Assembly (NCBI GenBank): GCA_013817465.1
Contig: JACDCP010000001.1
Location: 1 to 44,630 of the forward strand
Direction of reading: 5' to 3'
Source of the DNA: Gammaproteobacteria bacterium
Lineage (GTDB): Bacteria; Pseudomonadota; Gammaproteobacteria; Steroidobacterales; JACDCP01
DNA length: 44,630 nucleotides
Both the position numbers and the translations under genes were made by a program. The notes beneath the pieces were generated by a model. It was not told the origin of the DNA, ran no database searches, and saw nothing but the letters and a program-made list of their open reading frames with translations. This document shows positions 23,943-44,630 of this stretch, piece by piece (position 1 is the stretch's first letter; each line of letters begins with the position of its first letter).

Positions 23943-23962
23943 ACTGGCGCTCAGAGTCCTGT

Positions 23963-25111: not shown

Positions 25112-25168
25112 CGTCTTCGCTGGCAAAAGTACCCGCCTCCCCATCTTTCATCCTGGCAGAGAGCGCCG

Positions 25169-27004: not shown

Positions 27005-27017
27005 CGTTCAATTAAAG

Positions 27018-30537: not shown

Positions 30538-31734
30538 CTACTTCGTGCTTCGTGTCAGATTGCCCACTTCGTGGTACACCGCCAACGTCTGCTGAGCCAC
30601 GCGTTCCGAATGATATTCGGCCAGGGCCTTTGCCCGGGCAGCGTGTCCCATTTGTTCCCGCAGAGATTTACTCGCAACCAGTCGCGCCAGATGCCCCGCG
30701 AGCGCCCCCACATCCCCCGGCTCGAATAACAGCCCGGTCTTGTCATTCTCGACCTGGCCCGGGATACCGCAGATTCGCGTCGCCACAACCGGTATCGAAG
30801 CTGCCATGGCCTGCTGGATGACCATTGGCGCGGTTTCCTGATAAGACGGCAGCACGAGCAGAGCGGCACGCCCAAACTCATCTAGCAGATCAGGTTCTTT
30901 CAGCAAACCCAAGAATTCAACGCGCGAGGCTATACCGAGCTCATCGATCTTTTGATTGAGGCGCTGGACATAGACTTTGTCCGCGAGGGATCCTGCCAGG
31001 ACCAGACGTACACCAGCTTGGTCAAGCCCGAGGGTAAACGCCTCGACCAGGTCCGTTACGCCTTTTCGGGGGATCAATCTTCCCGCGAAAAGGATTCGAC
31101 CGGCTTCCTCGCGCCGTTGAACATCATAAAACTTCTTGTCGACCGGATTCGGAATGAGATGACTGACACCACGCAGTACTTCTCCGTAGTACTCCCGCAC
31201 GTACGGGCTTATCAGGATCGTGTGTGCCGCATGCATCGCACAATATTTTTCCGTTATCCTACTTTGCAGCTTCAAACGCATTCTGTCCACCGCACGCGAC
31301 AAATACCGTGCGTCTTCGCCAATAATACCGTGAAATGTGACGATAGATGGGTATTTGCTCTTGACAGCAAGGTAGCCGTCTATGCCAGCACCTTGCGCAT
31401 GAACTATCGACGGATTGATTTCCTTCAGACACACGCGCAGTCGGGAAAAGTCGTTTCTCCAGCGCGTGGTGGCGCCCAGACGCTGCCTTGGTAGAAGGTA
31501 CCTCTCCACTCCGTTCTGGCGCACTCGCTTAGGTATCTTAGTACCCGCGTCGAAACTCACGACCCGCAGATCTATTTCGCCAGATCCGATGATCTCTTTC
31601 ACAAGATATGCGGTTACGGCCTGCACGCCGCCGTCTATTGCGTGCACGTCGCGCGGATAATCCGCAATCATAGCCACGATCGGCTTCTGCCCAAGCCTGT
31701 CGCGAGCCGCGAAAGATCGCTTTGCGATTGTCAC
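30538..31734 (-). CDS. glycosyltransferase family 4
   Basis: 398-aa ORF with 'ILFAGRLIPRKGVTDLVEAF' and 'LLVLPSYQETAPMVIQQAMAASIPVVATRICGIPGQV'. The listed start is a GTG overlapping the upstream stop codon (GTGA at 31731-31734). An ATG at 31671 ('MIADYP') is an alternative. Confidence 0.85.
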   Translation of the reverse strand: MTIAKRSFAARDRLGQKPIVAMIADYPRDVHAIDGGVQAVTAYLVKEIIGSGEIDLRVVSFDAGTKIPKRVRQNGVERYLLPRQRLGATTRWRNDFSRLRVCLKEINPSIVHAQGAGIDGYLAVKSKYPSIVTFHGIIGEDARYLSRAVDRMRLKLQSRITEKYCAMHAAHTILISPYVREYYGEVLRGVSHLIPNPVDKKFYDVQRREEAGRILFAGRLIPRKGVTDLVEAFTLGLDQAGVRLVLAGSLADKVYVQRLNQKIDELGIASRVEFLGLLKEPDLLDEFGRAALLVLPSYQETAPMVIQQAMAASIPVVATRICGIPGQVENDKTGLLFEPGDVGALAGHLARLVASKSLREQMGHAARAKALAEYHSERVAQQTLAVYHEVGNLTRSTK

Positions 31735-32651
31735 GTAATCGAACTGGAATAACCCAGGCTGCCCAGCATCGGCTCCATGAGCGCGCTAAGCTTCTCAATA
31801 CGCACGACGCCAAAATCAGTCCGATACTTGTCGTTCATGTTCACGAGCGTATCGCGTCGCTCCAGATGCCTGTGGGCGAGTAGTGCATCCTCAAGGTCGC
31901 AGAACGAGTACATCTTGCGAAGCGCGACGTGGGGTGACTCGACAAAATCTTCATATCGGATCTCTTGGTAACCGACGTTCTCAAGTGTTCCGCTTTCCAG
32001 TCGCGCAATTTCAATTACCCGCTTCCACTGCAGCGCCGCCAGGACGCCTGGATCTTGCTGACTTTCCCACCACTTTTGCAGATCTGCATCCGACAGGCCA
32101 CCCCTCCAAAACGGCTTGCTAAGTCCGCCCTTTTCGCGCCAGAAAGCGACGTGAAGCAGCGAGTGAACCGCGGCTCGACCGTCCCTAATGATGTGCACAA
32201 ATTTCGCGTCGGGGAAAATGCTGCTCAGAAACGCCATGCGCGACGGACCTGTAATCTTTGCGGCAAAACGGGCACGCCCCTGCCATGCTAGCAATTTGCC
32301 TACTGCCCTATGTACGCGATGGACGGTTGACTTGTCGGCAGTCTGGTCCCGCAAATAACTGCGGGAGAAGTCCTGCCCGGTGTAAATGTCCCAGAAGCTA
32401 TACGCCTCACTAGGTTGCGGCAGAAAACGGTTGCCGAATACAGTGGGCCCGTGCTGCCCCTTCTTGCCGGTCAGGCTTACGAATGAATTGTCGAGTATAC
32501 GGCGCACCACATTTATCCCGGGATGTGTAGGAAATCTTTCCGTGTACACAGACGGCCAGCCCAGCGTTCTATGTTGGCAGAAGGCTTCGAATGCCACTGT
32601 CGTTCCGCTGCGCGGAAATCCAATGAAGAAAATTGGCTTCAGTATCTGCAT
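31731..32651 (-). CDS. sulfotransferase family protein
   Basis: 306-aa ORF with 'IFFIGFPRSGTTVAFEAF' and 'VHIIRDGRAAVHS'. Confidence 0.85.
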   Translation of the reverse strand: MQILKPIFFIGFPRSGTTVAFEAFCQHRTLGWPSVYTERFPTHPGINVVRRILDNSFVSLTGKKGQHGPTVFGNRFLPQPSEAYSFWDIYTGQDFSRSYLRDQTADKSTVHRVHRAVGKLLAWQGRARFAAKITGPSRMAFLSSIFPDAKFVHIIRDGRAAVHSLLHVAFWREKGGLSKPFWRGGLSDADLQKWWESQQDPGVLAALQWKRVIEIARLESGTLENVGYQEIRYEDFVESPHVALRKMYSFCDLEDALLAHRHLERRDTLVNMNDKYRTDFGVVRIEKLSALMEPMLGSLGYSSSIT

Positions 32652-32899: not shown

Positions 32900-34195
32900 A
32901 TGACTGATTCAGCGACAACAAACCGGCTACAGGCAAAGAGCATGCCTTATGCCAAGGCGAAGCATACAGAGCATCTGAAGATTTGCTATCTCACCACCGA
33001 ATATCCGAAGGTGAGTCATACATTCATTCGCCGGGAGATACTGGAGCTGGAACGACGAGGCCATGAAGTGTTGCGTGTCGCAATTCGAAACGCCGGAGGC
33101 GCCATCGCCGACGATGCTGACCGGCGGGAAGCGGAACGCACCATCCATTGCCTTTCCCTTTCGAAACGGAAATTTATTATTTCCATTCTACGAGTCATGT
33201 TAACGCGAGCGGGCCGGTGGCTGTCGGCCTTGCGAATGACGCTAACTATGAGCCGCGCCAGCGAACGGGGTTTGCTGCGCCATCTTGCATATCTCGCCGA
33301 GGCTTCTGTGCTGCTGCATATATTAGCAAAACATGGTATCTCACACACACACGTGCATTTTGGTACTAACGCCGCGGCCGTCGCAAGGCTCATCGACTGT
33401 CTCGGGGGACCCTCCTACAGCATGACGATACACGGGCCTGGCGAATTCGATGCGCCGTTGGGATTTTCCTTAAGCGAGAAGGTTGAAGAAGCCGCATTTG
33501 TTGTGGCGATCAGCAATTTTTGTTACTCCCAGTTATGCCGCTGGGTGTCCCCGGAGCACTGGCAGAAAATTCATGTTGTGCGTTGTTCGGTCGATGGGGG
33601 GTTCTTCGAGTCGGAGACGTCCGTGAATGGATCCTCCCGGTTGCTGCTGAGTATCGGCCGACTCACGGCTCAAAAGGGACAGCTTTTGCTGCTCGATGCA
33701 ATGAGGCAGTTGGTCGCCGCCGGCGATGATGTCCGACTGGTACTTGCCGGTGATGGCAAATTGCGTCCTATGATCGAAGAACGCATTGTCACTTTTGGCC
33801 TGCAGCGTCACGTGACGGTTACCGGCTGGGTGGACGAAGCCACGGTGCGTATGCACTTGCAAGAAGCCCGCGTGCTCGTGCAGCCAAGCTTCGCCGAGGG
33901 TCTTCCTGTGGTAATTATGGAAGCGCTGGCTATGGGTCGCCCAGTGATCAGCACTTATGTCGCAGGGATTCCGGAGCTCGTCCGTCCCGGCGAGAACGGA
34001 TGGTTGGTGACCGCAGGGAACGTAGACGAGCTCGTGAGCGCCATTCGCGAAGCCCTCGATGCGCCTGCAGCGCAGCTGACAAGCATGGGTCGCGCGGGAC
34101 GGGAACGCGTCCGGGCGCGACATCACGTCACTACGGAAGTCGAGACGCTGGAGACGCTTCTACGTGCTGCTGCTTCCGGTGTTGCCAACTCGTGA
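32900..34195 (+). CDS. glycosyltransferase family 4 (WcaL-like)
   Basis: It has 'LKICYLTTEYPKVSHTFIRREILELERRGHEV', and the C-terminal half has 'SIGRLTAQKGQLLLLDAM' and 'LVQPSFAEGLPVVIMEALAMGRPVISTYVAGIPELV' (EX7E). The start is uncertain: TTG at 32816, ATG at 32900 or ATG at 32942. Confidence 0.8.
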   Translation: MTDSATTNRLQAKSMPYAKAKHTEHLKICYLTTEYPKVSHTFIRREILELERRGHEVLRVAIRNAGGAIADDADRREAERTIHCLSLSKRKFIISILRVMLTRAGRWLSALRMTLTMSRASERGLLRHLAYLAEASVLLHILAKHGISHTHVHFGTNAAAVARLIDCLGGPSYSMTIHGPGEFDAPLGFSLSEKVEEAAFVVAISNFCYSQLCRWVSPEHWQKIHVVRCSVDGGFFESETSVNGSSRLLLSIGRLTAQKGQLLLLDAMRQLVAAGDDVRLVLAGDGKLRPMIEERIVTFGLQRHVTVTGWVDEATVRMHLQEARVLVQPSFAEGLPVVIMEALAMGRPVISTYVAGIPELVRPGENGWLVTAGNVDELVSAIREALDAPAAQLTSMGRAGRERVRARHHVTTEVETLETLLRAAASGVANS

Positions 34196-34419
34196 TATGC
34201 ACGATAGCGGACGCCGTCGGGTAACCTGACGTTGCAGTGCGCTGGGAGGAACCACTATTCCTCAGCATCACCGCTGCTTCGACATCAGGGCAAGTGGACA
34301 AACGTTGGCAACTGTCGGCCGAAAGGCTGGTTGATCTTCCAATAGCTTTGGGTTTGTGCTGCTCTGATGCATACGACACCCGGTGTCGTCCGCTGATCTG
34401 CACATCCGATCAAATGTCG

Positions 34420-35406
34420 TCACTTGCTGCGAATGATAACCTTTAAGCGCGCGAGAAACAGCGACCACGTCATTCGTTTCTGCACCGTGAATTTGTTCTT
34501 TATCTGCCTTGCCAGGACAGTCCAAGTATCGTGCGTTGACCACCAAAGCCGATTGGCGAACCCGGGATTGACGTCGCTATCGGGGCGGCAAGTAGCAAAT
34601 CCCAGGTTCGCGAGGCACATCCCGCCGATCATCTCGAGAGATTGCAGTCGCGAGTCGGTAAAATAGCCGGTATTCCGGTTTACGTTTTTTGTTATTTCTT
34701 TGGACTCTTGCCCGATATTCAGCGGTCGAGGCCGGGTCGATGACAAAACCCTTTCGTCGAATGCCACACCGATGCTGGCGCAGACGCGCCGCATGTGGAG
34801 CTCCGGATCATTCGTGACGTCCTCGTATCGCACTTCGACATAACGATCGGGGACGCGTCGGCCCTGACGCCGACCCTCTGCAACGACATGTTTCCAGCGG
34901 AACATGGTGCCGCAGGGATGCCTCCCCCAGCGTCTGTGATCCGAAGCTGCACAGTCGCGGCCGTCCCGCAGCATGTGTATGAAAACCGATCCCGGGAACG
35001 CTTTGCCCAGCGTGGCAATGTGCAAGGCATAGATTGGCGTCTTTTCGCACCAGCGACTCTTTCCTTCGTGGCGCGCAAACTCATGAATGATCCGATCGAA
35101 CACTCCACTCGCATTCCGCCGGGTCGCGGCCCAATCCGGAGGCAAATCCACCGGTCGCCCTTTATTGACTCTACAGAACGGGTATTCGCTACGCATATCA
35201 TTCCACAATTTCGCAAAATTGGCGTCGAGGCGCAGATCTCCGTACTTGTGCTCGTTTGCGAGGTAATGCGGGAGTATATATGTCTCGATTCTGAAGCCGA
35301 ACAATTCCGGATGATGTCCAAGATGGTCGAGCATCATCGTCGTTCCGGAGCCGTTCATTCCCACGATGAATACAGGACCGTGAAACGTTTGCCGTGCGCT
35401 GTCCAT
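34420..35406 (-). CDS. sulfotransferase family protein
   Basis: 328-aa ORF with 'VFIVGMNGSGTTMM' and 'FIHMLRDGRDCAAS'. It is a paralogue of 19493..20524. Confidence 0.85.
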   Translation of the reverse strand: MDSARQTFHGPVFIVGMNGSGTTMMLDHLGHHPELFGFRIETYILPHYLANEHKYGDLRLDANFAKLWNDMRSEYPFCRVNKGRPVDLPPDWAATRRNASGVFDRIIHEFARHEGKSRWCEKTPIYALHIATLGKAFPGSVFIHMLRDGRDCAASDHRRWGRHPCGTMFRWKHVVAEGRRQGRRVPDRYVEVRYEDVTNDPELHMRRVCASIGVAFDERVLSSTRPRPLNIGQESKEITKNVNRNTGYFTDSRLQSLEMIGGMCLANLGFATCRPDSDVNPGFANRLWWSTHDTWTVLARQIKNKFTVQKRMTWSLFLARLKVIIRSK

Positions 35407-35419
35407 CGTTCGGATCAGG

Positions 35420-37132
35420 TCAGAGATTTGATGGGCCGGCGGCGCCGTCTACGTTCGAATCGATCCTGTAGACGTGAATGAGGGGCCCCGGCCTGTCCCT
35501 TGGATTCGGCGGAAACGCGCGCACCAAAGAAACGTCTGGATCCGCCTCTAGTTCATCAAGGAACGACAAACCGACGTGGGCAATCTTTCGGGATTCCACA
35601 AAGTATTCTGGCCTTATCACCAGGTACTCGATCCCCATATCTTTGTAATGGTCGAGGTCGTGTGCGCGGAGCTCTGACGGCGATACTAGCTCCAGATCAT
35701 AGGTGCTGCCGCTCATCGCCTGAAGCCTATACTTCAAATACTTTGCCTTGCCGGGCTCCCGCGTCTCGTAGAATTCTATATGGTCGCGCATGTTTTCCAT
35801 AGTATCCTGCAGTGGAACCGTGAGCCTGGTCGGCTCGATTTTCAAACCCTCGATAAATACTGTGGCGCCCTGCGGAATATTCTCGCCGATCCACTCCTTC
35901 GCAATCGTCCTGGTGTCTGTGTGAGACAACAAGTAGTTGTTCACAACCGTCTTGTACGCCGGCATGAAGGCGAGAGCTGCGACGACTACGATCGCGACAG
36001 TCTGCTTCGCCGCACCCGCACCAGGCCACGCCGCCCACAAAAGGCGGCCTGCCATCAGGGCAAGTACGACGATCACCGGCAACATGTAGCGGGGAAAATA
36101 CAGATGCGGGTGTGAAGAGGTGGCGAATACAAGATAGAAAACGCAGGCAAATGCCAAGAGCATTACATCTGCCGGAGTGCGCTTCCAGGCGCCGTACAGG
36201 ATTCCGGCGAAAGAAACGAGCAGCAACGGCCAACCCATCGAATCACCGAGCACGGCGATGTAATAGATGAAGAAATTAGGCGGGGTCCCCTGTGCTGCCT
36301 CCGCATACTCGAGCTCCACCGCCCCTTCATCCGCGCCCCCCGCATCGCCGAAATACGCTGGCATCGGCGGATCCAGAAACAGCCCTGGGTTGGTGATCCC
36401 CAGCACCACGACGAAAATTGCGACAGCCCACCAGAGATGTGCCGTCAGGAAGAACTGGCGCGGTCCTCCCCCCTTTCGCCGAACATAGTAGTAATGCGCA
36501 ATGAGCAGCGGCAGGAGGAGCAGAATTGCCGGAAGCTTGGTGGTCGTCGCCAACGCTGCAAACACCGCTGCCCACTTGTAATCCCGGCCACTTCCGCCCG
36601 TGGCCATGTTGGCTGCAAAGAGCAGCGCAGCGGTTGCGAGGCAGGTCATCGGAATATCGACTGTGATGTAATGCGAGTGCTCCGCGCTCAAAAAATCCAC
36701 TGTCAGAATGGTCCCCGCCAGCAGGCCCGCGCCGGTGGAATAAGCGCGGGCACCGAGGCGGTACAAGAGGAATACGTTCAGGGTTCCGATCGCCGCGGTT
36801 GTCGCGCGACCTATCAAATAAAAGCTGGATGGGTCGCCGACAAAATACCTCGCGAAATCCTGTGCCGACTCGATGACTCCGGCGATCTTCAATGCGACGA
36901 ACAGAACCCCGTACTCCAAAAACAGCACATAAAAATAGCCGCCCTTGCCTGTTCTTTCTAAATTGAAGCTGCCGCTGCCCAGTTCCAGCGCGCGAAACAC
37001 CTCATGGTACTCGTCTGCTCTGTAGCTGAATGGCAGCCCGAACCAGATGCCCCAAAGACGCAGGCCGAATGCTGCGGCGAGAATCAGAGCCAGATAAATC
37101 CAAATCCGGTTAAGATTCCTTATACTTTCCAT
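35420..37132 (-). CDS. GT-C fold membrane glycosyltransferase (GT39/ArnT/PMT_2-like)
   Basis: 570-aa ORF with about 10 or more predicted transmembrane helices. The first loop has 'LPFSYRADEYHEVFRAL', a DE motif as in ArnT/PMT enzymes. The C-terminal ~170 aa are soluble. Family membership is inferred from architecture. Confidence 0.65.
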   Translation of the reverse strand: MESIRNLNRIWIYLALILAAAFGLRLWGIWFGLPFSYRADEYHEVFRALELGSGSFNLERTGKGGYFYVLFLEYGVLFVALKIAGVIESAQDFARYFVGDPSSFYLIGRATTAAIGTLNVFLLYRLGARAYSTGAGLLAGTILTVDFLSAEHSHYITVDIPMTCLATAALLFAANMATGGSGRDYKWAAVFAALATTTKLPAILLLLPLLIAHYYYVRRKGGGPRQFFLTAHLWWAVAIFVVVLGITNPGLFLDPPMPAYFGDAGGADEGAVELEYAEAAQGTPPNFFIYYIAVLGDSMGWPLLLVSFAGILYGAWKRTPADVMLLAFACVFYLVFATSSHPHLYFPRYMLPVIVVLALMAGRLLWAAWPGAGAAKQTVAIVVVAALAFMPAYKTVVNNYLLSHTDTRTIAKEWIGENIPQGATVFIEGLKIEPTRLTVPLQDTMENMRDHIEFYETREPGKAKYLKYRLQAMSGSTYDLELVSPSELRAHDLDHYKDMGIEYLVIRPEYFVESRKIAHVGLSFLDELEADPDVSLVRAFPPNPRDRPGPLIHVYRIDSNVDGAAGPSNL

Positions 37133-37144
37133 AACCAGTTCCGA

Positions 37145-38008
37145 CTACCTGCCAATGTTCACTGCCAGCAGCTCCGCGTTGGCGCCAAGCGCCCTCCACT
37201 GCCGTGACATGCTTTTATCGAGTCTCACGGTCACCGCGCCGCACAGCTTCTCCGCTTCCGATGACAAGCGGCTGTCGTTTCGTCCGATTGATTGCGCGTG
37301 AATGTGTTTGATCATCTCCTCAAAAAAGCGGCACCCGAGGAAGTCGCAAACTATTCTCATCACGCGTTCAGGATCTCGGACCAGCATTTCGTACTTGAGC
37401 AGCAGAACATCCGGATTCGTATCCAGTCGTTGATCAAAGAAAAGCTGATTGCGAAGATACCAGAACACACCTGCAGCGGACTGCGCGCTCATCTGCGCGT
37501 AGTCCAGTTTGCGCAGAACCGACAACGTCTCCGCAGTGATACCCCTGGCTTCCCAGCGGTCGGTAGGGCCCTTCTCCATGAGCTCCCTGAGGAAGCGAAG
37601 ATTGGTGTCGCCGAATTTCGAAACCGCGGAGTTCGCCCTGTCCTCGACGCGACGATACATCCAGATGGCCTTGCTGCCGGCATCCGTGGCCAGAAGCGCG
37701 TCGGCCCGATGTGAGTCCGTGAGGGGCTTGAAGGCGATAAAGGGTCGCTTGCTTGCGGCGATCAGGCTCCGCGTCTCATCCAGGCTTTTCAGTACGCTGT
37801 TCTTGAAAGCGACCGACATTTCGCCGTAGACGTCGAACTCCGGCGAATTTTCGAAGCAGCTTGCCAACATCGTCGTGCCGGACCGCTGTGCGCCCAGGAT
37901 AAAGATACCGCGGTGTTGCGAGGCTGGACCATGACGGCGCAACCAGATCCATTTACGGATCGTCCGCCGCATAGCATCCATGCGGCGCGTCATCTTTTCG
38001 ACGATCAT
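37145..38008 (-). CDS. sulfotransferase family protein
   Basis: 287-aa ORF with 'IFILGAQRSGTTMLASCF' and 'IWMYRRVEDRANSAVSKF'. Confidence 0.8.
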   Translation of the reverse strand: MIVEKMTRRMDAMRRTIRKWIWLRRHGPASQHRGIFILGAQRSGTTMLASCFENSPEFDVYGEMSVAFKNSVLKSLDETRSLIAASKRPFIAFKPLTDSHRADALLATDAGSKAIWMYRRVEDRANSAVSKFGDTNLRFLRELMEKGPTDRWEARGITAETLSVLRKLDYAQMSAQSAAGVFWYLRNQLFFDQRLDTNPDVLLLKYEMLVRDPERVMRIVCDFLGCRFFEEMIKHIHAQSIGRNDSRLSSEAEKLCGAVTVRLDKSMSRQWRALGANAELLAVNIGR

Positions 38009-38253
38009 ATTCCGTGCAGCCTCAATCTATCGGTGAGAAATGACAGCCGATCGGCCGACGGCAAGTCCACCTGCATCCGAATACGTACCTTCATCCGCCC
38101 GAAAACTAGCACACAGTATCGCGGGCAGCCGTGATGGCGTTCCCGCTTGTGGGTCATGGGGGAAGGCCCCGATGCCCCCGCGTCAGATCCACAGCGACCC
38201 TGAGGGGTGCAATGGGTCGTCATGCCTTCACGGCCTGACTGCCCATGCTTAGA

Positions 38254-39555
38254 TCAAGCCTCGTTCTCAGGGTGCGGTCCGTGATGCCGTGTGATCAGGA
38301 GCAGTGAAACTCCGATGATAACCACGTTGCCGATAACCGTCGCAATGACGAATGCCCCCAGGGTCCACTCCGGGCTCGCTTCCAGACCAAAAGCGATGCC
38401 GAACGTACTCATGCGAAACACTGTGGTTGCGAGCTGCAGATGAAGCCAAACCCTCTGCTTCCTCAGTACAATGAACACTGGATTCGAAGGCGCGGTAACC
38501 CAGATCATGAAAAGCCAAGGCGAGATAATCTCGAGGTAGCGGCCGGCTTCCGACCAGCGCTCGCCGAGCAGCCAGGTTGCCAATGGTTGTCCGGAAAACC
38601 AGAGCACGGCAAGTGGGCCGGCACCCAACAGAACGAGCCCGCCCGTGGATAACAGAAACGCCGACCTGAGGCTCCTGCCGCGATGACCGATCTCGGCGGC
38701 CTTCTGCAGGAACACTCTTCGTACGGAATTGGCCACGACGACAATGGGAACGTGAGACACGCGCGTGGCCATGGCGTAGAAGCCGACGACTGCCGGCGAA
38801 AAAAGAACACCGAACAAAATAACAGGAAGCTGTTGAGTAGCCGCGGTCAGAAGCGCCGCAGGCGCGTTCAACCTCGGAAAATCCGAATACTTCGTGGCGA
38901 TCCGCCGAATTGCCGTCCATCCAACAGGCCGAAAGGTCGCCCGAAACCCTTCGCTGCTTGCGCTCTTCTGCACGGCCAACCGGAAGACCTGGCCGAACAT
39001 GTGTCCCACCACGAGCCCGAACACCGAGCTGCCGGCTAAGGCCCCAAATCCTATACGGGCCCCGCCCGTCACTGCCGTACCGACAACCATCGACGTCGCA
39101 ACAACCTTGAACATTTTTCTGCGGGCTAACCAGTTTTCCTGAATCGTGACCATCGTCAGGAGCAGGACACTCAGCGGCAACAGCCATAACCACATGCCCA
39201 GGGATTCCAGAACCGGGACTGTCAGATCGCTGAGCTCGTAACCGCCGATAATCAGCAGCAGAACGGCGCATACGAAGATCAGCAGACGATAAGCGAAGGC
39301 CATCAACAACAGCGCCTCTGCTTCCTGGTCCGGCAACACGAGGGCGTTTTCATACCGAAGAGCGCCCACATTCGATACGACCACCCCAAGAGACAGGAAC
39401 AATGCTGCGATGCCAAAATCGCTGGGAGAAAACAGACGCGCAATGATCGGCATGGTGACGAGCGCAATGCCAGCTGCAATGCTCTTGCCCGACATCATTG
39501 TCGCGACGTTGCCGAGGAACGCCTTGTGCCTGGTAAGAAAATCTGCAAATCGCAT
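38254..39555 (-). CDS. oligosaccharide flippase (Wzx / Polysacc_synt, MOP superfamily)
   Basis: 433-aa polytopic membrane ORF. Its N-terminus 'LGNVATMMSGKSIAAGIALVTMPIIARLFSPSDFG' is typical of polysaccharide biosynthesis flippases. Confidence 0.8.
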   Translation of the reverse strand: MRFADFLTRHKAFLGNVATMMSGKSIAAGIALVTMPIIARLFSPSDFGIAALFLSLGVVVSNVGALRYENALVLPDQEAEALLLMAFAYRLLIFVCAVLLLIIGGYELSDLTVPVLESLGMWLWLLPLSVLLLTMVTIQENWLARRKMFKVVATSMVVGTAVTGGARIGFGALAGSSVFGLVVGHMFGQVFRLAVQKSASSEGFRATFRPVGWTAIRRIATKYSDFPRLNAPAALLTAATQQLPVILFGVLFSPAVVGFYAMATRVSHVPIVVVANSVRRVFLQKAAEIGHRGRSLRSAFLLSTGGLVLLGAGPLAVLWFSGQPLATWLLGERWSEAGRYLEIISPWLFMIWVTAPSNPVFIVLRKQRVWLHLQLATTVFRMSTFGIAFGLEASPEWTLGAFVIATVIGNVVIIGVSLLLITRHHGPHPENEA

Positions 39556-39802
39556 GATGCTATTCTGGCTGAAGTGAGAATTCGCTCAACTGCTTCAATC
39601 GGCCCAGCAGCGACCGCGCGGGATTGTGGCAACTTCCCGGCCCGCGGTCCAGCAAGCCCGTCTGACAGGAAGTGGCCGCTCGTAGACGCCGTGATCGTGT
39701 ATACCTTAATATACCCGCCGCGAGGTCCCCGAGAGTCGCGTGCTCGTCCGGCTTGCGCCACGGCTCATGAGTTTCAATGCTGCCGGGCTCAGTGCAGAAT
39801 TC

Positions 39803-40588
39803 ATGGTCATCAGCGACAAGCACAAGTACGTATTCGTAGAGCTACCGCGGACTGGATCCAGCGCAATCAGCCGTGAGCTGCGTGAGCATTACGACGGTCG
39901 CAACATTCTGCACAAGCATGCCACATATGACGAGTTCCTCAGTTCGGCTACAGATAGAGAATCAAGCTATTTCGTTTTTGGTGGCCTGCGCAATCCTGTC
40001 GACGATGCGGTCAGCCTCTACTTCAAGCTGGTGACCGACCATCAGCGCAAGTTTTCACGTCTGCAGCATGCGGGATGGTTTACGCGATTGGCCTATCGAT
40101 TCCGATCGAGACAATTCCACTTTGCGCGGGCGGACAAGAACGGTTTTTCGCGCTTTTTTCTGAAGTTCTATCGATTTCCCTATGACAACTGGAGCTCGCT
40201 CGCGCATGCGAGGTTTGACCGCGTGCTCCGCTTTGAGACTCTGGTGGAGGATTTCGACGCTGCGCTTGCGCAACTGGGCATTGAACCGGTAAGGCCACTG
40301 CCGGTTGGAAACAAGACCGGGGGCAGGAGCATGGCTTACTGGGAGTACTACAACACCAAAGCTATCGCACGAGCGCGGTGGGTCTTCGGGGTATATATGG
40401 AAAAGTGGGGTTACGGGTTTCCAATATCGTGGAAACTTGGCGAAGCCGTCCCAGGCGCCGTGAACAGATTGGTCTTCAGATTCCTGAATGTTTTTCGCAG
40501 ATTTTACTGGCGCCGTTTGCGTCCCGTGGTATATGCGAAGATTCAGCGTGACCAGCAAAGACGGCGAGCTCTGGAGTTTGTCGAATAA
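39803..40588 (+). CDS. sulfotransferase family protein (Sulfotransfer_2-like)
   Basis: Motifs 'YVFVELPRTGSSAISREL' and 'FGGLRNPVDDAVSLYFK' are present. The start is uncertain: GTG at 39740, ATG at 39767 or ATG at 39803. Confidence 0.7.
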   Translation: MVISDKHKYVFVELPRTGSSAISRELREHYDGRNILHKHATYDEFLSSATDRESSYFVFGGLRNPVDDAVSLYFKLVTDHQRKFSRLQHAGWFTRLAYRFRSRQFHFARADKNGFSRFFLKFYRFPYDNWSSLAHARFDRVLRFETLVEDFDAALAQLGIEPVRPLPVGNKTGGRSMAYWEYYNTKAIARARWVFGVYMEKWGYGFPISWKLGEAVPGAVNRLVFRFLNVFRRFYWRRLRPVVYAKIQRDQQRRRALEFVE

Positions 40589-40721
40589 GCCAGTTGCTGC
40601 GGTTGTTCCCGAGGGCGCACCGCAATGATCAAACCTGTTGCTGCCGTCGGTACTTGCTCGATCTACCCAACGTCCGGCAAGCCAGGAAGCGCAGATTAGT
40701 CCGCTCAACAGATAACGTCCG

Positions 40722-43274
40722 GTGCGTTCGGAGGGAAGCGTGCTGACTCAACCGCCACAGGTTAACGCCGCGATCACCGGGCGGCAGCTGGCTATACGGA
40801 CCTTCCAGCTTGTCGTACTCGTATATCTGGTTCGCTATTTCGAGATCGGCAGCCCTCAGTTCGGTACGATCATGCTTCTCGCCGTTCCGGCGTTTCTTAT
40901 AAATGCTCTCTTGCCTTTCCGGTATCGACTGGAATGGTTCCTGACCGTGTCGCTCATCGGGATCGTGCTGGTTCTCGGTCCTGTAAGTGCTATCTGGCTG
41001 ATAGCCATCGTCACTGCGTTTATTGCTATCTGTCATCTGCCGGTGCCTCTCGGTTCGCGCATTACGATACTGCTTGCAGCAGGCGCCGCGCTTTTCTTTT
41101 TCCGGCTCCGCGGATGGGGCGTGCCCTGGTCGGAAACCGCATGGCCGATCATTGCGTCGATTCTGATGTTTCGTGTGATCGTATACCTTTACGACCTACA
41201 CCACGAGAAGACACGCCCGTCGGCCCGGTGGAGCCTATCCTATTTCTTCTTGCTGCCGAATGTCTGCTTTCCCCTGTTTCCCGTCGTCGACTTCAAGAAG
41301 TTCCGGCAGACATACTACAGCGAGCCTGCGCCCGTAGTTTACGGGCGGGGAATGTCGTGGATATTCAGGGGCGTTTATCAGCTGATTCTCTACCGCATCG
41401 TCTACCAGTTTGTCGTTATTCCGCCGGAGGAGGTATTTAACGCGGCCCAGCTATTGCACTTCATCGTATCGAGCTATCTCCTGTACCTGCGAGTGTCTGG
41501 ACTTTTCCATCTGATCGTCGGCGTGCTATTGCTTTTCGGATTCAATTTGCCGGAGACACACAAAAAGTATTACCTGGCTTCCAGCTTTAACGATTTCTGG
41601 CGGCGCATCAACATCTACTGGAAAGACTTCATGATGAAGATCTTTTACTACCCGATATATTTCAAGGTCAAAGGTCTGGGCGCCACGCCCGCCCTCATTA
41701 TCGCCACCGTCGCCGTTTTCTTTGCCACCTGGCTACTGCATGCTTATCAATGGTTCTGGCTGCGGGGAACTTTCCTTTTCGAGCTCCACGATTTGCTGTT
41801 CTGGTCAGTTCTTGGCGTTCTGGTCGTCCTCAATTCGCTTCGAGAAATCAAGTATGGACGGGTCAGGTCGATCGGTCGCCAGCCGCTGCTCAGCTCCGGC
41901 CGGTTGTCGAATGTCTGCCGCGTGGCTTCGACGTTCCTGACAATCAGTATCTTGTGGTCCATGTGGAGCTCGGACAGCCTTGAGCAGTGGTTGCTCATGT
42001 GGAAGTCTGCGGGCGGACAAGCCGTCCTCATCGTGATCGCGGTTTTAGTGTTTTATGCGCTCGCGAATTGGGGGGACAAGCGCTCCGAAAAAGTCTCGAC
42101 AAAGGTGCGCACGCTCGTTGGACGGGACGTTGCAGCAGCCGAGCCGGGCGGGATCAGACTCGGGTCAGGTCTCATTGCCGGTAGCCTGGTGGTCCTCGTG
42201 TTCATGAGCCGGCCGGAGATACCCTGGGTACCAGATGCCTATGCGGACATAGCCAGGCAGCTTCGCACGGTACAATTAAATCGGCGCGATCAGGCTCGCA
42301 TGGAGCGCGGATACTATGAGCACCTGCTTAATGTCAACCGGCACAGCGAGGGGCTGTGGACTGCCGTCGAGAAGAAGCCCGCGGACTGGATCGACAATCT
42401 GAATGACACGGAAATTGCGGTCCGTGTGCCGAGATTCCTGATTACCGAACTCGCTTCCGACAAGGAAATCCAGTTCAAGGGCGCTCAACTCAAAACCAAT
42501 CGTTGGGGCATGCGAGATCGCGATTACCCGATAGCCAAATCGAAGGATAGCACGCGCGTCGCTCTGTTCGGCACGTCCCACACGCTGGGATCCGGCGTTT
42601 CAAATGCGCAAGTGTTCGAGCATCTGCTGGAACAGCGTCTCAACGCCGGCGCAGCCGGTGCCACACCATCATCTGCTTATGAAATACTCAATTTTTCCAT
42701 GGTCGCATACAGTGCGTTGCAACACCTTTACCTGCTCGATCATAAAGTTCGAGAATTTCGTCCGGACGCTATAGTCTACTTCGCCCTGGAAGACGATGAA
42801 CGCTTCATCCTGCGGCATCTCAGTCTGGCGATTCGAAACGGCATAGAGATTCCCTACCAACCTGTGCTGGCAATCGTGAACCTGCTTGGACTCGATGCTT
42901 CCCATTCTGACGAAGAAATCCGGCGCAAACTTGCGCCGTACGCTGCAGGGATTCAGGCATGGGCGGAACGTGAGCTGGCAGCGAACATCCGCGGAATGGG
43001 CGCAACCGCTCTGTGTGTATTTCTTCCGAAGGTGCAGTCACGCCCTGACCAGGCAACAGCGGAGACGCGCCAGAGAATAGCTCGGGAAGCGGGCTTCCAC
43101 ACGCTCGATCTCCATGACGTCTACGACGGCTACAGCCGGCAGGAGCTGCAAATCAAACCCTGGGACGACCATCCAAACGAGTTGGCGCATTCGTTGATAG
43201 CAGAGCGCTTGCACCAGGAACTGGTCGATCGGCCGCAATTGCTCGGAAAAAGTTCCTCGCGAATTGCTCGCTGA
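40722..43274 (+). CDS. MBOAT-family O-acyltransferase fused to a C-terminal SGNH/DltD/AlgX-like domain
   Basis: 850-aa ORF. The N-terminal ~470 aa are polytopic, with the MBOAT-type block 'NDFWRRINIYWKDFMMKIFYYPIYF' and a later 'FFATWLLHAYQWFW'. The C-terminal ~330 aa are soluble, with 'RVALFGTSHTLGSG' (block I-like Ser) and 'WDDHPNELAHSLIAERL' (block V-like). The GTG start at 40722 is not verified. Confidence 0.75.
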   Translation: MRSEGSVLTQPPQVNAAITGRQLAIRTFQLVVLVYLVRYFEIGSPQFGTIMLLAVPAFLINALLPFRYRLEWFLTVSLIGIVLVLGPVSAIWLIAIVTAFIAICHLPVPLGSRITILLAAGAALFFFRLRGWGVPWSETAWPIIASILMFRVIVYLYDLHHEKTRPSARWSLSYFFLLPNVCFPLFPVVDFKKFRQTYYSEPAPVVYGRGMSWIFRGVYQLILYRIVYQFVVIPPEEVFNAAQLLHFIVSSYLLYLRVSGLFHLIVGVLLLFGFNLPETHKKYYLASSFNDFWRRINIYWKDFMMKIFYYPIYFKVKGLGATPALIIATVAVFFATWLLHAYQWFWLRGTFLFELHDLLFWSVLGVLVVLNSLREIKYGRVRSIGRQPLLSSGRLSNVCRVASTFLTISILWSMWSSDSLEQWLLMWKSAGGQAVLIVIAVLVFYALANWGDKRSEKVSTKVRTLVGRDVAAAEPGGIRLGSGLIAGSLVVLVFMSRPEIPWVPDAYADIARQLRTVQLNRRDQARMERGYYEHLLNVNRHSEGLWTAVEKKPADWIDNLNDTEIAVRVPRFLITELASDKEIQFKGAQLKTNRWGMRDRDYPIAKSKDSTRVALFGTSHTLGSGVSNAQVFEHLLEQRLNAGAAGATPSSAYEILNFSMVAYSALQHLYLLDHKVREFRPDAIVYFALEDDERFILRHLSLAIRNGIEIPYQPVLAIVNLLGLDASHSDEEIRRKLAPYAAGIQAWAERELAANIRGMGATALCVFLPKVQSRPDQATAETRQRIAREAGFHTLDLHDVYDGYSRQELQIKPWDDHPNELAHSLIAERLHQELVDRPQLLGKSSSRIAR

Positions 43275-43309
43275 TCGGGGTATTCAACGCACGGCCAGAG
43301 GTAAGAATT

Positions 43310-43555
43310 ATGGGACCGGTCGGACAATCGGTAAAGGACTTTATTCTGGACGAGTTTCTCCGTGGGGAGGATCCAGATGAATTGACTGCCTCCACCCCGT
43401 TGATCTCATCTGGTATTCTGGATTCGCTGGCCACCCTGAAACTCTCCCAGTTTCTGGAACAGCATTTCGACATTCAGATGGCGGCGCACGAGCTCGACGA
43501 AGAGCATATCGGAACGATTGCGGCAATCGAGCAGTTGATCGCTTCGAAGCAGTAG
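43310..43555 (+). CDS. carrier protein (DltC-like)
   Basis: 81-aa acidic ORF with 'SSGILDSLATLKLSQFLEQHF' (the DSL attachment serine). AGAGG lies 9 nt upstream of the ATG. Confidence 0.8.
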   Translation: MGPVGQSVKDFILDEFLRGEDPDELTASTPLISSGILDSLATLKLSQFLEQHFDIQMAAHELDEEHIGTIAAIEQLIASKQ

Positions 43556-43564
43556 CATACAGCG

Positions 43565-44630
43565 GTGTCAGCCCTTCACGGCTATTTGCAGCGTACAGCG
43601 GCCGCTCGTCCGCATGCTGCGGCGATCGAAGCTGACCGCCAGAGCATTTCCTATGGCGAGCTGCATGCTCTTGCCAAAAGTATCTGCGAACGATTGACCA
43701 TGCTCGGCGCAAACCGCGGAGACCGGATCGGCGTCTATCTGCCCAAATCAATTGACGCTGTGGCCGCAATGCACGGCATCATGATGTCAGGGGCTGCCTA
43801 TGTACCGGTCGATCCATCTGCACCGGCAGTGCGCAACGCTAGCATTCACCATGACTGCTCGGTGCGCATAGTCATTGTTCATGCCAAGTTCGAAGCCGCT
43901 TACCGGCAGGCATTCGGCGTGCTTGGACGTATTCCGACCCTGATCGTGGTTCCCGAAGTGGAGCGAGGTTTCGGAATGCGAGAGGCAGTCGATGCTGCGA
44001 AATCTGGAGCGCAGTTCGCTCAGGGCTTTGATCCGAATCCTGACGATCTGGCGTACATACTCTATACGTCGGGTTCGACCGGCAAGCCCAAGGGCGTGAT
44101 GCTCACGCATCGGAACGCAACGAGTTTCATTGACTGGTGTTCGGAGGTCTTTGCCCCGGGCAGTGCAGACCGCTGCTCCTCCCACGCACCCTTCCATTTC
44201 GATTTGTCGGTCCTCGACATATACCTGACGATGAAACACGGCGCGACGCTCGTGTTGGTGCCGGAGGCTACCGGCAAAGATCCTGTTGCCCTTGCGCCTT
44301 TCATAGCTGCTCAGCGCATTTCCGTCTGGTATTCGGCGCCTTCCATTCTCGGCCTGCTGGCTCATTTCGGAAAACTGGCGCAGTACGATTTGTCTCCGCT
44401 AAGACTGGTGTTGTTTGCCGGCGAAGTTTTTCCTGTCAAACACCTGAGGGCGCTCAAGACGTTGCTGCCCGCCCCGGTCTACTTCAATCTTTACGGGCCC
44501 ACGGAAACCAATGTTTGCACCTACTACCGCATTCCCGACACCATACCGGCGGACCGGACCACTCCGTATCCAATCGGCCGCACGTGCGCGCACCTGCAAA
44601 CAACAGTTATCGACGACACCGGCAACACCG
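43565..44630 (+). CDS. DltA-like amino-acid adenylating enzyme (5' partial, runs off window end)
   Basis: This ORF is not in the ORF track because it has no stop codon in the window. My own translation from the GTG at 43565 (first start after the in-frame carrier-gene TAG) gives 'SISYGELHALAKS', 'AAYVPVDPSAP', 'LAYILYTSGSTGKPKGVMLTHRN', 'FHFDLSVLDIY' and 'NLYGPTETNV'. Confidence 0.85.
   Translation, partial: MSALHGYLQRTAAARPHAAAIEADRQSISYGELHALAKSICERLTMLGANRGDRIGVYLPKSIDAVAAMHGIMMSGAAYVPVDPSAPAVRNASIHHDCSVRIVIVHAKFEAAYRQAFGVLGRIPTLIVVPEVERGFGMREAVDAAKSGAQFAQGFDPNPDDLAYILYTSGSTGKPKGVMLTHRNATSFIDWCSEVFAPGSADRCSSHAPFHFDLSVLDIYLTMKHGATLVLVPEATGKDPVALAPFIAAQRISVWYSAPSILGLLAHFGKLAQYDLSPLRLVLFAGEVFPVKHLRALKTLLPAPVYFNLYGPTETNVCTYYRIPDTIPADRTTPYPIGRTCAHLQTTVIDDTGNT

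What the first reader, a model, noticed from the sequence alone, without database searches (positions are those of the whole stretch)
40722..44630. Compact Dlt-like system: MBOAT-SGNH fusion, carrier protein and DltA-like ligase in an EPS locus
Seen in sequence: three consecutive plus-strand genes lie at the 3' end of the window.
- An 850-aa protein with an N-terminal MBOAT-type polytopic domain and a C-terminal soluble domain. The soluble domain has SGNH-like block I ('FGTSHTLGSG') and block V ('DDHPNELAHSLIAERL').
- An 81-aa carrier protein with 'LDSL'.
- An adenylating enzyme with 'YTSGSTGKPKG', 'FHFDLSV' and 'YGPTETN'.

Established knowledge: D-alanylation of teichoic acids uses DltA (ligase), DltC (carrier), DltB (MBOAT) and DltD (a membrane-anchored SGNH-like protein). 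Alginate O-acetylation pairs an MBOAT (AlgI) with SGNH-like AlgJ/AlgX.

Inference: all four Dlt functions may be encoded here in three genes, with DltB and DltD equivalents fused. That would predict aminoacyl esterification of an exported, probably sulfated, polysaccharide in an organism with Gram-negative-type export genes. This is the second ligase/carrier pair in the locus; the first pair (5226..8286) lacks a recognisable transferase of its own.
Basis: partly seen in the sequence, partly recalled or inferred. Interest (0 to 1): 0.8.

Follow-up and report, generated by a model that had tools for sequence, protein, structure and literature searches.

The report
Proline-derived polysaccharide acylation gene cassette
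Inside a sulfated-polysaccharide gene cluster sits a widespread but undescribed four-gene module that appears to load proline onto a small carrier protein, oxidise it, and pass it through a single fused membrane enzyme to decorate a sugar polymer outside the cell; it is related to Gram-positive D-alanylation but uses different chemistry.

Summary
The 850-aa protein is an MBOAT–SGNH fusion, but only structure shows the MBOAT half: its closest solved fold is DltB, and Pfam MBOAT hits none of 39 family members. The SGNH half is a generic GDSL fold, not DltD.

The "DltA-like" ligase is not a D-alanine ligase. Its specificity code, D-LLYLALVC, is exactly the published consensus of stand-alone L-proline adenylation enzymes (PltF, RedM, CloN4, AnaC).

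An independent assembly of the same organism (99.991% identical over 11.3 kb) completes the ligase. It also shows a fourth gene 14 bases downstream, a prolyl-carrier dehydrogenase 53% identical to AnaB.

The four-gene module (fusion, carrier, Pro-ligase, dehydrogenase) recurs across many phyla. All three partner genes are present in 33 of 42 well-flanked survey loci.

An invariant GYYE.L motif in the periplasmic linker may be a built-in equivalent of the DltX acyl-tyrosine shuttle.

Best reading: a Dlt-like, carrier-dependent pathway that esterifies an exported glycan with an oxidised proline unit (pyrroline- or pyrrole-2-carboxyl). I found no prior description. Everything downstream of proline activation is inference.

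The parts
40722..43274 (+). Fusion gene (850 aa; alternative start at 40740 gives 844 aa): MBOAT domain, two-helix TM hairpin, flexible linker, SGNH domain
   Evidence: ORF. AlphaFold pLDDT 85.3. Foldseek DltB/PORCN/HHAT for the N-half and GDSL hydrolases for the C-half. More than 3,500 homologs. 1,652 clusters at 50% identity with E<=1e-30.
40722..41981 (+). MBOAT domain (about residues 1-420), with invariant H263 (41508-41510), N297 in the FWRRIN motif (41610-41612) and H340 (41739-41741)
   Evidence: H263 and H340 invariant and N297 Asn in 82 of 83 family members. hhalign to a PF03062 MBOAT, E 7e-5, aligns FWRRINIYWKDF with FWRRWHMTLSAF, so N297 takes the place of the DltB His289-type residue. 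Pfam MBOAT hits 0 of 39 members.
42009..42206 (+). Extra TM hairpin (TM 430-448, K/R-rich loop 449-476, TM 477-495) that would return the chain to the periplasm
   Evidence: Hydropathy peaks of 2.28 and 1.87; the loop has 6 K+R. Helices in the model. Topology is inferred from the positive-inside rule.
42309..42326 (+). G530-Y531-Y532-E533-x-L535 motif in the low-confidence (flexible) linker: candidate internal acyl-tyrosine shuttle
   Evidence: G, Y, Y and E invariant in 83 of 83 and L535 in 82 of 83. pLDDT is below 50 for residues 525-549. The FxYxxF shuttle of DltX and MBOAT C-termini is described in PMC12148441. A canonical MBOAT in L012 ends in FIYFNF.
42399..43271 (+). Periplasmic SGNH/GDSL domain (about residues 560-850): Ser619 (42576-42578), Gly623, Asn657, Asp815 and His817 (43164-43172)
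   Evidence: All five residues invariant in 83 of 83. Pfam Lipase_GDSL_2 hits 25 of 39 members. Fold matches to TesA, Axe2, CEX and EstL5. Faint NCBIfam GDSL hit on the window protein.
43310..43555 (+). 81-aa carrier protein; phosphopantetheine attachment Ser39 in GILDSL (43424-43426)
   Evidence: PP-binding 3e-6. Best PDB relative is the Bmp1 carrier domain (6CXT_A, 1.7e-8), followed by unnamed PCPs, PigG, DltC and PltL. Adjacent to the fusion gene in 40 of 42 well-flanked loci.
43565..44630 (+). Stand-alone L-proline-type adenylation enzyme, truncated by the contig end (355 of 517 codons)
   Evidence: AMP-binding 7e-76, TIGR01733 5e-72. Code D-LLYLALVC equals the stand-alone L-Pro consensus L(L/F)YLALVC (PMC3874040). 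Completed to 517 aa in L087, identical over the 354 compared residues. PltF 336 bits against DltA 174-214 bits.
38254..39555 (-). Wzx-type flippase just upstream of the cassette; Wzy lies just downstream of the cassette, beyond the window in L087
   Evidence: Polysacc_synt_3 6e-20. Wzy_C gene at L087 12948-14351.

Best explanation
This is a four-gene module. The fourth gene lies just past the contig end. The module builds a proline-derived acyl donor on a carrier protein and uses a single-chain MBOAT-SGNH enzyme to attach it to an extracytoplasmic glycan, here most likely the sulfated Wzx/Wzy-dependent EPS of this locus. The proposed steps are as follows. (1) The stand-alone A-domain activates L-proline and loads it on Ser39-phosphopantetheine of the 81-aa carrier. 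(2) The AnaB/PigA/Bmp3-like flavin dehydrogenase oxidises prolyl-S-carrier to pyrroline-carboxyl (2 electrons) or pyrrole-2-carboxyl (4 electrons). (3) The carrier docks on the cytoplasmic face of the DltB-like MBOAT domain, and the N297/H340 active site moves the acyl group to the outer face, possibly onto Tyr531 or Tyr532 of the invariant GYYE.L linker motif. (4) Ser619 of the periplasmic SGNH domain takes the acyl group and esterifies a sugar hydroxyl. Step 1 rests on direct sequence evidence. Step 2 rests on homology and conserved synteny. Steps 3 and 4 and the acceptor are inferred by analogy with Dlt and PatAB.
For: Proline activation: the code D-LLYLALVC, with a correct GrsA control, exactly matches the published stand-alone L-Pro consensus, and 50 of the 58 family ligases compared share it. 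PltF is the best free-standing PDB match, 336 bits over the full length. Dehydrogenase: L087 is 99.991% identical to window 33310-44630 and continues with a 379-aa ACAD 14 nt after the ligase stop. The ACAD's top three PDB matches are all prolyl-carrier dehydrogenases: AnaB 476 bits (53% identity, gap-free), Bmp3 340 bits, PigA 290 bits. NCBIfam PigA scores 431 bits and RedW 398 bits. Carrier: its best PDB relative is the Bmp1 carrier domain. Module coherence: of 42 GTDB loci with at least 6 kb on both sides, 40 have the ACP, 34 the ligase, 34 the ACAD and 33 all three, with 27 in the same gene order. No fifth conserved gene was found. The module also occurs on its own among housekeeping genes. 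ProB and ProA lie directly upstream in L001. Transferase: DltB is the top fold match, with an SGNH fold in the C-half. All catalytic residues are invariant. The predicted topology places the SGNH domain outside. In known biology, Dlt is the one MBOAT/SGNH system that uses a carrier protein (PMC12148441). Acceptor: in this organism the cassette lies between Wzx and Wzy, and it sits in EPS loci in L001, L003, L004 and Mesorhizobium.
Against: There is no biochemical evidence of any kind. The dehydrogenase is not in the window; it comes from a near-identical second assembly. It scores below the NCBIfam equivalog cut-offs (431 below 500; 398 below 650), so its exact reaction is open. The ligase's best overall PDB hit is an LgrA A-domain (362 bits), not PltF. 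The MBOAT assignment depends on a predicted fold plus a modest hhalign score (63% probability, E 7e-5), and no MBOAT HMM hits any member. GYYE.L is not the canonical FxYxxF. Of 43 survey loci of at least 18 kb, 27 show no recognisable polysaccharide gene nearby, so the acceptor may not be a locus-specific EPS in general. About a fifth of well-flanked loci lack the ligase or the ACAD nearby.
Confidence: 0.55

Rival explanations
1. Same machinery and same proline-derived acyl group, but the acceptor is not the locus EPS. It could be another envelope molecule such as LPS, periplasmic glucan, peptidoglycan, a lipid or a protein.
For: In L085 the module sits among housekeeping genes. Of 43 survey loci, 27 have no detectable polysaccharide-assembly gene within +/-10 kb. 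MBOATs in general also acylate lipids and proteins.
Against: In this organism and its closest relatives the module is embedded between Wzx and Wzy with GTs and sulfotransferases, and likewise in Mesorhizobium. My tblastn query set for polysaccharide genes has limited sensitivity.
Confidence: 0.2
2. Plain L-prolyl esterification: a positively charged aminoacyl ester on an anionic polymer, the closest analogue of D-alanylation. The ACAD would play an accessory or unrelated role.
For: Eight of 42 well-flanked loci lack a nearby ACAD, and L057 has the ligase without it. Charge modulation of a sulfated EPS would make biological sense.
Against: The ACAD is coupled to the ligase (14 nt gap here, overlapping stop/start in L035) and is present in 34 of 42 loci. 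Its nearest characterised relatives all act on prolyl-S-carrier.
Confidence: 0.12
3. The fusion protein is an ordinary acetyl-CoA-dependent O-acetyltransferase (PatA/PatB or AlgI/AlgJ type, merely fused). The ligase, carrier and ACAD would form a separate type II NRPS pathway that happens to be adjacent.
For: Apart from Dlt, the other characterised bacterial MBOAT/SGNH systems described there use acyl-CoA and lack a carrier protein. L084 has the fusion and ACP but no ligase or ACAD within 10 kb.
Against: The ACP directly follows the fusion gene in 40 of 42 loci across many phyla. The four genes travel together into unrelated contexts, and no condensation, thioesterase or other NRPS/PKS partner is conserved nearby. 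The family has lost the canonical RWH histidine and the C-terminal FxYxxF of the acetyl-CoA MBOATs.
Confidence: 0.08
4. One reading: a compact DltABCD equivalent that D-alanylates (or otherwise aminoacylates with a small amino acid) the polysaccharide.
For: DltA NCBIfam models hit the ligase (1.5e-53). The DltC model hits the carrier weakly (3.7e-6). DltB is the top structural match.
Against: The specificity code is the proline type. The DltA hits are far below cut-off (182 against 476 bits) and weaker than PltF. A prolyl-carrier dehydrogenase is present. ProB/ProA are linked in L001. No member hits the DltD family.
Confidence: 0.04

Closest known systems
Dlt pathway of Gram-positive bacteria (DltA ligase, DltC carrier, DltB MBOAT, DltX shuttle microprotein, DltD SGNH)
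   Same: It is the only known MBOAT/SGNH system fed by a carrier-protein thioester made by a stand-alone adenylating enzyme. DltB is the closest solved structure to the N-domain. The logic is the same: carrier to MBOAT to (Tyr) to SGNH Ser to polymer.
   Different: Here the MBOAT and SGNH are one polypeptide with an extra TM hairpin. There is no DltX gene; instead there is an internal invariant GYYE.L. Asn replaces DltB His289. The SGNH domain is generic GDSL, not the DltD family. The substrate is L-proline, not D-alanine, and a flavin dehydrogenase is added. The hosts are Gram-negative and other diderm phyla, and the likely acceptor is an EPS rather than teichoic acid.
Thiotemplated proline oxidation triads of type II NRPS pathways (PltF/PltL/PltE, RedM/RedO/RedW, PigI/PigG/PigA, Bmp4/Bmp1/Bmp3, AnaC/AnaD/AnaB)
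   Same: A stand-alone L-Pro A-domain with the identical specificity code, a small carrier protein and an ACAD-family prolyl-carrier dehydrogenase, encoded side by side.
   Different: Those triads feed small-molecule natural products (pyoluteorin, prodiginines, bromopyrroles, anatoxin-a). Here the only conserved fourth partner is a membrane MBOAT-SGNH transferase, with no PKS, NRPS or halogenase genes. The ACAD is closest to AnaB (53%), whose product is a pyrroline and not a pyrrole, so the oxidation state is undetermined.
PatA/PatB, AlgI/AlgJ/AlgX and WssH/WssI O-acetylation systems
   Same: An MBOAT plus a periplasmic SGNH transferase that modifies exported glycans in Gram-negative bacteria. 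They also use an acyl-Tyr intermediate.
   Different: They are separate proteins and use an acetyl-CoA donor with no carrier protein. They have the canonical FWRRWH and C-terminal FxYxxF motifs, both altered here.
AT3-SGNH fusion acyltransferases (OatA, OafA/OafB)
   Same: A single-chain membrane acyltransferase fused to an extracytoplasmic SGNH domain, with an internal Tyr relay.
   Different: The membrane domain there is acyltransferase-3, which is unrelated in fold to MBOAT, and the donor is acetyl-CoA.

Membership tests
MBOAT superfamily (PF03062) | Match to the family HMM | tested here: not met
   No PF03062 or PF13813 hit at E<=0.1 for the window protein or for any of the 39 aligned members. 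A profile of the family finds no MBOAT among PDB sequences.
MBOAT superfamily (PF03062) | MBOAT fold (multi-helix core forming a funnel/tunnel) | tested here: met
   The model has pLDDT 85.3. The top Foldseek hits are DltB 8JEM/6BUG (E 2e-6, target TM 0.61-0.63), PORCN, HHAT and LPCAT3. hhalign to a bona fide PF03062 protein gives E 7e-5 and 63% probability over 183 columns.
MBOAT superfamily (PF03062) | Conserved active-site pair: Asn/Asp/His, then an invariant His about 35-50 residues later | tested here: inconclusive
   N297 (82 of 83) aligns with the His of the canonical FWRRWH motif, which corresponds to DltB His289. H340 is invariant and lies 43 residues downstream, but the hhalign alignment stops at residue 328, so its equivalence to DltB His336 is inferred.
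Dlt system | DltA: D-alanine-specific carrier ligase | tested here: not met
   The DltA models score 176-182 bits on the truncated window ligase and 277-288 bits on a full-length relative (L004), against cut-offs of 476-560. The specificity code is the L-Pro stand-alone type. PltF outscores DltA.
Dlt system | DltC-type carrier protein | tested here: inconclusive
   The DltC models score 27 and 20 bits, against cut-offs of 68 and 52. PDB DltC scores 21 bits, below the Bmp1 carrier domain at 38 bits.
Dlt system | DltD-family SGNH protein (PF04914) | tested here: not met
   None of 39 members hits the DltD family, while 25 of 39 hit Lipase_GDSL_2. DltD is not among the top 50 fold matches.
Dlt system | DltX-type FxYxxF acyl-shuttle motif | tested here: inconclusive
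   There is no separate microprotein gene: the gaps are 35 and 9 nt. An invariant internal GYYE(N/D/S)L lies in a flexible periplasmic linker. It resembles FxYxxF but does not match it.
SGNH/GDSL hydrolase superfamily | Blocks I, II, III and V with Ser, Gly, Asn and Asp/His, and the SGNH fold | tested here: met
   S619, G623, N657, D815 and H817 are invariant in 83 of 83. Fold matches include TesA, Axe2 and EstL5 with target TM up to 0.79. One oddity: block V reads D-x-H rather than the usual D-x-x-H.
Stand-alone L-proline adenylation enzymes (type II NRPS) | Specificity code L(L/F)YLALVC between the invariant D and K | tested here: met
   The window ligase reads D-LLYLALVC, and the GrsA control reads DAWTIAAIC. 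The consensus is from PMC3874040. Residue K517 lies beyond the window but is present in the completed L087 protein.
Stand-alone L-proline adenylation enzymes (type II NRPS) | L-proline-dependent ATP-PPi exchange and carrier loading | not testable with these tools
   This needs purified protein.
Prolyl-carrier protein dehydrogenases (AnaB, PigA, RedW, Bmp3) | Closest characterised relatives act on prolyl-S-carrier; encoded next to a Pro ligase and a carrier | tested here: met
   AnaB 476 bits, Bmp3 340 bits and PigA 290 bits are the top three PDB matches. The gene is adjacent in L087, the same organism. It lies outside the window itself.
Prolyl-carrier protein dehydrogenases (AnaB, PigA, RedW, Bmp3) | Score above the NCBIfam equivalog cut-off (PigA 500, RedW 650) | tested here: not met
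   The scores are 431 and 398 bits. It is a related but distinct subfamily, and whether the product is a pyrroline or a pyrrole is unknown.
AT3-SGNH fusion acyltransferases | Acyltransferase-3 membrane domain | tested here: not met
   No Pfam AT3 (Acyl_transf_3) family appears among the hits for the window protein or any of the 39 members, and the membrane domain folds as an MBOAT.

The most novel reading that the evidence does not exclude
This is a widespread envelope-modification pathway (more than 1,600 clusters at 50% identity, in many phyla) that has not been described. Thiotemplated pyrrole/pyrroline chemistry, so far known only from small-molecule antibiotics and toxins, is used to esterify secreted polysaccharides with pyrrole-2-carboxylate or dehydroproline. 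The transfer is carried out by the first single-chain MBOAT-(Tyr shuttle)-SGNH transferase and the first carrier-protein-dependent MBOAT system outside Dlt.
Probability: 0.45. Interest if true: 0.85.

Novelty: new variant of a known kind. Interest (0 to 1): 0.74.

Why it matters
If correct, it extends the Dlt paradigm, in which a carrier protein feeds an MBOAT and then an SGNH enzyme, from Gram-positive teichoic acids to polysaccharides of Proteobacteria, Acidobacteriota, Gemmatimonadota, Chloroflexota and other phyla. It predicts a polysaccharide substituent for which I found no report: a proline-derived heterocyclic ester. It would give the MBOAT/SGNH field a natural fusion in which the shuttle tyrosine, the MBOAT and the SGNH domain are fixed in one chain, which is convenient for structural and mechanistic work. 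It also connects type II NRPS tailoring enzymes to glycan biology. Such esters could change the charge, hydrophobicity, UV absorbance or enzymatic resistance of EPS in soil, rhizobial (Mesorhizobium, Microvirga) and wastewater (Accumulibacter) bacteria. Cultured carriers make it directly testable.

Tried and rejected
(1) Pfam, NCBIfam and PDB sequence searches on the fusion protein, alone and as a 39-sequence profile, gave no MBOAT hit and only borderline GDSL hits. Only structure and hhalign resolved the MBOAT half.

(2) The carrier's best NCBIfam hit is 'ACP for OlsHI' (ornithine lipid), at 100 bits against a cut-off of 130. The OlsHI paper never mentions an ACP, and neither OlsH (GH3-like) nor OlsI is present here. 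I dropped it as a functional lead.

(3) Literature searches for the code string DLLYLALVC(K) found nothing. A substring search then found the consensus in PMC3874040.

(4) Searches for any paper linking MBOAT or Dlt with prolyl or pyrrolyl carriers, or for pyrrole-2-carboxyl polysaccharide esters, found none. The library is open-access only, so this absence is not proof.

(5) The plasmid collection gave one relative, Microvirga pMVF16-2, but it carries no annotation.

(6) A search for a fifth conserved gene found only shadow ORFs.

(7) A second 81-aa ORF downstream in L087 is not a carrier protein.

(8) I tested the assumption that the family always sits in polysaccharide loci and found it false for most survey loci.

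(9) I did not run a separate model of the C-domain to rank DltD, PatB and AlgX specifically.

Full report
OBSERVATION

The three plus-strand genes are present as described: 40722..43274 (850 aa), 43310..43555 (81 aa), and an ORF from GTG 43565 that runs off the window end after 355 codons. Pfam confirms PP-binding for the small protein (3e-6) and AMP-binding for the third (7e-76). NCBIfam's amino-acid adenylation domain model scores 5e-72 on the third.

The window is a whole MAG contig: Gammaproteobacteria bacterium, locus tag H0W33_00180. The surrounding locus is an XrtA/PEP-CTERM-type EPS cluster. It has a chain-length determinant, a tyrosine autokinase, GT2/GT4 glycosyltransferases, Wzx, epimerases, a radical-SAM enzyme and at least nine sulfotransferases.

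THE 850-AA PROTEIN

On its own it hits no MBOAT, GDSL or DltD model and nothing in the PDB by sequence. A 39-member family profile gives only borderline GDSL hits in the PDB and no DltB hit. Scanned one by one, 25 of 39 members hit Lipase_GDSL_2, 13 hit Lipase_GDSL, and none hits MBOAT or DltD.

A confident AlphaFold model (pLDDT 85.3, pTM 0.79) settles the fold:
- The N-half is closest to DltB (8JEM, 6BUG; E about 2e-6, TM 0.61-0.63 on the target), followed by PORCN and HHAT.
- The C-half matches classic SGNH hydrolases (TesA TM 0.72-0.79, Axe2, CEX, EstL5).
- DltD is not in the top 50.

Profile-profile alignment to a genuine PF03062 MBOAT that happened to be in locus L012 gives E 7e-5. It aligns the family's invariant FWRRINIYWKDF with the canonical FWRRWHMTLSAF. 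N297 therefore takes the place of the histidine that corresponds to DltB His289, since Trp285, Trp288 and His289 form the DltB active-site cluster (PMC11035591). An invariant H340 lies 43 residues further on and is the presumed His336 equivalent.

Across 83 family members at 36-67% identity, the following are invariant: H263, R295, H340 and Q343; S619, G623, N657, D815 and H817; and G530-Y531-Y532-E533. N297 is Asn in 82 of 83.

Hydropathy shows two extra TM helices (430-448 and 477-495) around a K/R-rich loop. By the positive-inside rule, this puts the linker and the SGNH domain in the periplasm. That topology is an inference.

THE LIGASE IS A PROLINE ENZYME

I extracted the Stachelhaus positions by alignment to a GrsA segment. 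The control returned the known DAWTIAAIC. The window ligase reads D-LLYLALVC, as do 50 of the 58 family ligases compared.

[quoted passage not shown] The match is exact.

The other ligase in the window (6757..8286, minus strand) reads DLVLQCVIC and is only 30% identical, so it has a different substrate.

RECOVERING THE MISSING END

A look-up of the exact carrier sequence found L087, a 25-kb contig from an independent assembly. It is 99.991% identical to window 33310..44630, with 1 mismatch in 11,321 bp.
- It completes the ligase to 517 aa. All 354 compared residues are identical to the window's copy.
- It shows a 379-aa acyl-CoA-dehydrogenase-family gene 14 nt downstream, followed by Wzy on the opposite strand.
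- The full ligase matches PltF (6O6E) at 336 bits over its full length, against 174-214 bits for the DltA structures. The top overall hit is an LgrA A-domain at 362 bits.
- The ACAD's three best PDB matches are all prolyl-carrier dehydrogenases: AnaB 476 bits (53% identity, no gaps), Bmp3 340 bits and PigA 290 bits. Generic ACADs score at most 277 bits. 6CXT is identified as the Bmp3-Bmp1 complex in PMC8857579.
- NCBIfam ranks PigA (431 bits) and RedW (398 bits) first, both below their equivalog cut-offs.
- The window carrier's best PDB relative is the Bmp1 carrier domain, ahead of PigG, DltC and PltL.

CONSERVATION OF THE MODULE

The fusion family is large. It has more than 3,500 word-indexed homologs. 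An exhaustive HMMER search finds 1,652 clusters at 50% identity with E<=1e-30.

A GTDB scan confirmed 526 relatives and returned 79 loci. The taxa include Mesorhizobium spp., Accumulibacter, Burkholderiales, Rhodocyclaceae, Acidobacteriota, Gemmatimonadota, Anaerolineales, Verrucomicrobiia, Calditrichaceae, Planctomycetota and Binatia.

Of the 42 loci with at least 6 kb on both sides, 40 have the carrier, 34 the ligase, 34 the ACAD and 33 all three. In 27 the order is fusion-carrier-ligase-ACAD. Clustering all flanking ORFs found no fifth conserved gene.

In L001, authentic ProB and ProA, both above NCBIfam cut-offs, lie directly upstream. In L085 the four genes sit among housekeeping genes. 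A Microvirga megaplasmid carries them too.

MECHANISM

PMC12148441 summarises the current model:
- MBOAT and SGNH partners are separate proteins. Only AT3-SGNH is known as a fusion.
- Dlt is the only such system fed by a carrier protein.
- The acyl group passes through an invariant Tyr in an FxYxxF motif, either on DltX or at the MBOAT C-terminus.

A 2022 review likewise describes the SGNH partners as unfused.

The canonical MBOAT in L012 indeed ends in FIYFNF. The fusion family lacks that. Instead it carries the invariant GYYE(N/D/S)L in a low-confidence, presumably flexible, periplasmic linker about 35 residues after TM 477-495.

I therefore propose this sequence of events:
1. The ligase loads L-Pro on the carrier.
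2. The ACAD oxidises it to a pyrroline- or pyrrole-carboxyl thioester.
3. The carrier docks on the DltB-like domain.
4. N297/H340 catalyse transfer outward, possibly to Y531 or Y532.
5. Ser619 then esterifies the glycan.

Only proline specificity is supported directly by the window's own sequence. The rest is homology, synteny and analogy.

THE ACCEPTOR

In this organism the module lies between Wzx and Wzy. The same kind of context holds in L001, L003, L004 and Mesorhizobium temperatum.

However, a tblastn census found no recognisable polysaccharide-assembly gene within +/-10 kb in 27 of 43 large survey loci. For the family as a whole the acceptor may therefore be a commoner envelope glycan, or may be encoded elsewhere in the genome.

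COMPARISON AND NOVELTY

The system works like Dlt but fails several Dlt membership tests: DltA specificity, the DltD family and a separate DltX. Its soluble half is a type II NRPS proline-oxidation triad, which has not been reported feeding a membrane transferase. I found no paper that describes the combination. That search covers open-access literature only.

I rate it a new variant of a known kind. The main uncertainties are the oxidation state of the transferred group, the role of the YY motif and the identity of the acceptor.

Noticed in passing
window 5609..6562 (+), between ACP1 (5226..5477, -) and ligase1 (6757..8286, -): A formyltransferase-fold gene (Pfam Formyl_trans_N 1.3e-19 and Formyl_trans_C; NCBIfam formyltransferase/ArnA-like at 127 bits) lies on the opposite strand between the first ligase and its carrier. 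It could be the 'missing' transferase of the first pair, for example for N-acylation of an amino sugar. Ligase1 has the code DLVLQCVIC, and an FAD-dependent glycerol-3-phosphate-dehydrogenase-like gene (8286..9977, -) lies next to it on the other side.
   Followed up: partly
window 43310..43555: The carrier's strongest curated match is NCBIfam NF052616 'ACP for OlsHI' (ornithine-lipid pathway of planctomycetes), at 100 bits against a cut-off of 130. That is far above DltC (27 bits). The OlsHI paper does not mention an ACP. This suggests a shared carrier subfamily whose role in the OlsHI context is itself unexplained.
   Followed up: partly
window 1183..3218, 18599..20524, 23807..26098, 31731..32651, 34420..35406, 37145..38008; probably also 39740..40588: An unusually high density of sulfotransferase genes: at least nine with Pfam hits. 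In addition, the 282-aa ORF just upstream of the fusion gene has a PRTGSS loop and a faint Sulfotransfer_2 hit in its L004 ortholog. This implies a heavily and diversely sulfated polymer.
   Followed up: partly
window 26973..28120: An IS66-family transposase is split into two overlapping ORFs: LZ_Tnp_IS66/zf-IS66 at 26973..27752 and DDE_Tnp_IS66 at 27440..28120. This is either a frameshift or a programmed one. It sits in the middle of the EPS locus, near stretches of lower G+C (0.53-0.56 at 24-26 kb and 30-36 kb, against about 0.61-0.67 elsewhere).
   Followed up: no
L001 5693..7917 (-), directly upstream of the fusion gene: Dedicated proB and proA copies (both above NCBIfam cut-offs) are transcribed divergently from the cassette in a 4.7-Mb genome. 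This is consistent with a local proline supply. Only two of the fetched loci show it, and those two carry the same fusion protein.
   Followed up: partly
L084 5935..13963: A variant context: the fusion gene and an 81-aa carrier but no ligase or ACAD within 10 kb. Instead there are two extra stand-alone GDSL proteins, a carbamoyltransferase with SxtJ-like and DUF5989 genes, and methyltransferases.
   Followed up: no
L087 12948..17451 (continuation of the window beyond 44630): Past the cassette the locus continues with Wzy, another sulfotransferase, a 430-aa Acetyltransf_6 (FemAB-like) protein and a CBM96 protein. An 81-aa ORF there is not a carrier protein.
   Followed up: partly
window 11194..14102: Two sizeable ORFs (298 aa on the minus strand, 690 aa on the plus strand) next to the chain-length determinant have no Pfam or NCBIfam hit. 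A 448-aa ORF at 28962..30308 has only a weak polysaccharide-lyase hit.
   Followed up: no
window 43164..43172 (fusion residues 815-817): Block V of the SGNH domain reads W-D-x-H-P-N throughout the family, that is D-x-H rather than the usual D-x-x-H spacing of GDSL hydrolases. Whether this relates to transferase rather than hydrolase activity is unknown.
   Followed up: no
L066 (Mesorhizobium amorphae) compared with L032, L035, L036, L044, L045 and L055: Six Mesorhizobium loci place the cassette in a Wzx/GT4/pyruvyl-transferase/Bac_transf locus. The M. amorphae locus showed no such neighbours in the same census, which suggests the module has relocated within the genus.
   Followed up: no
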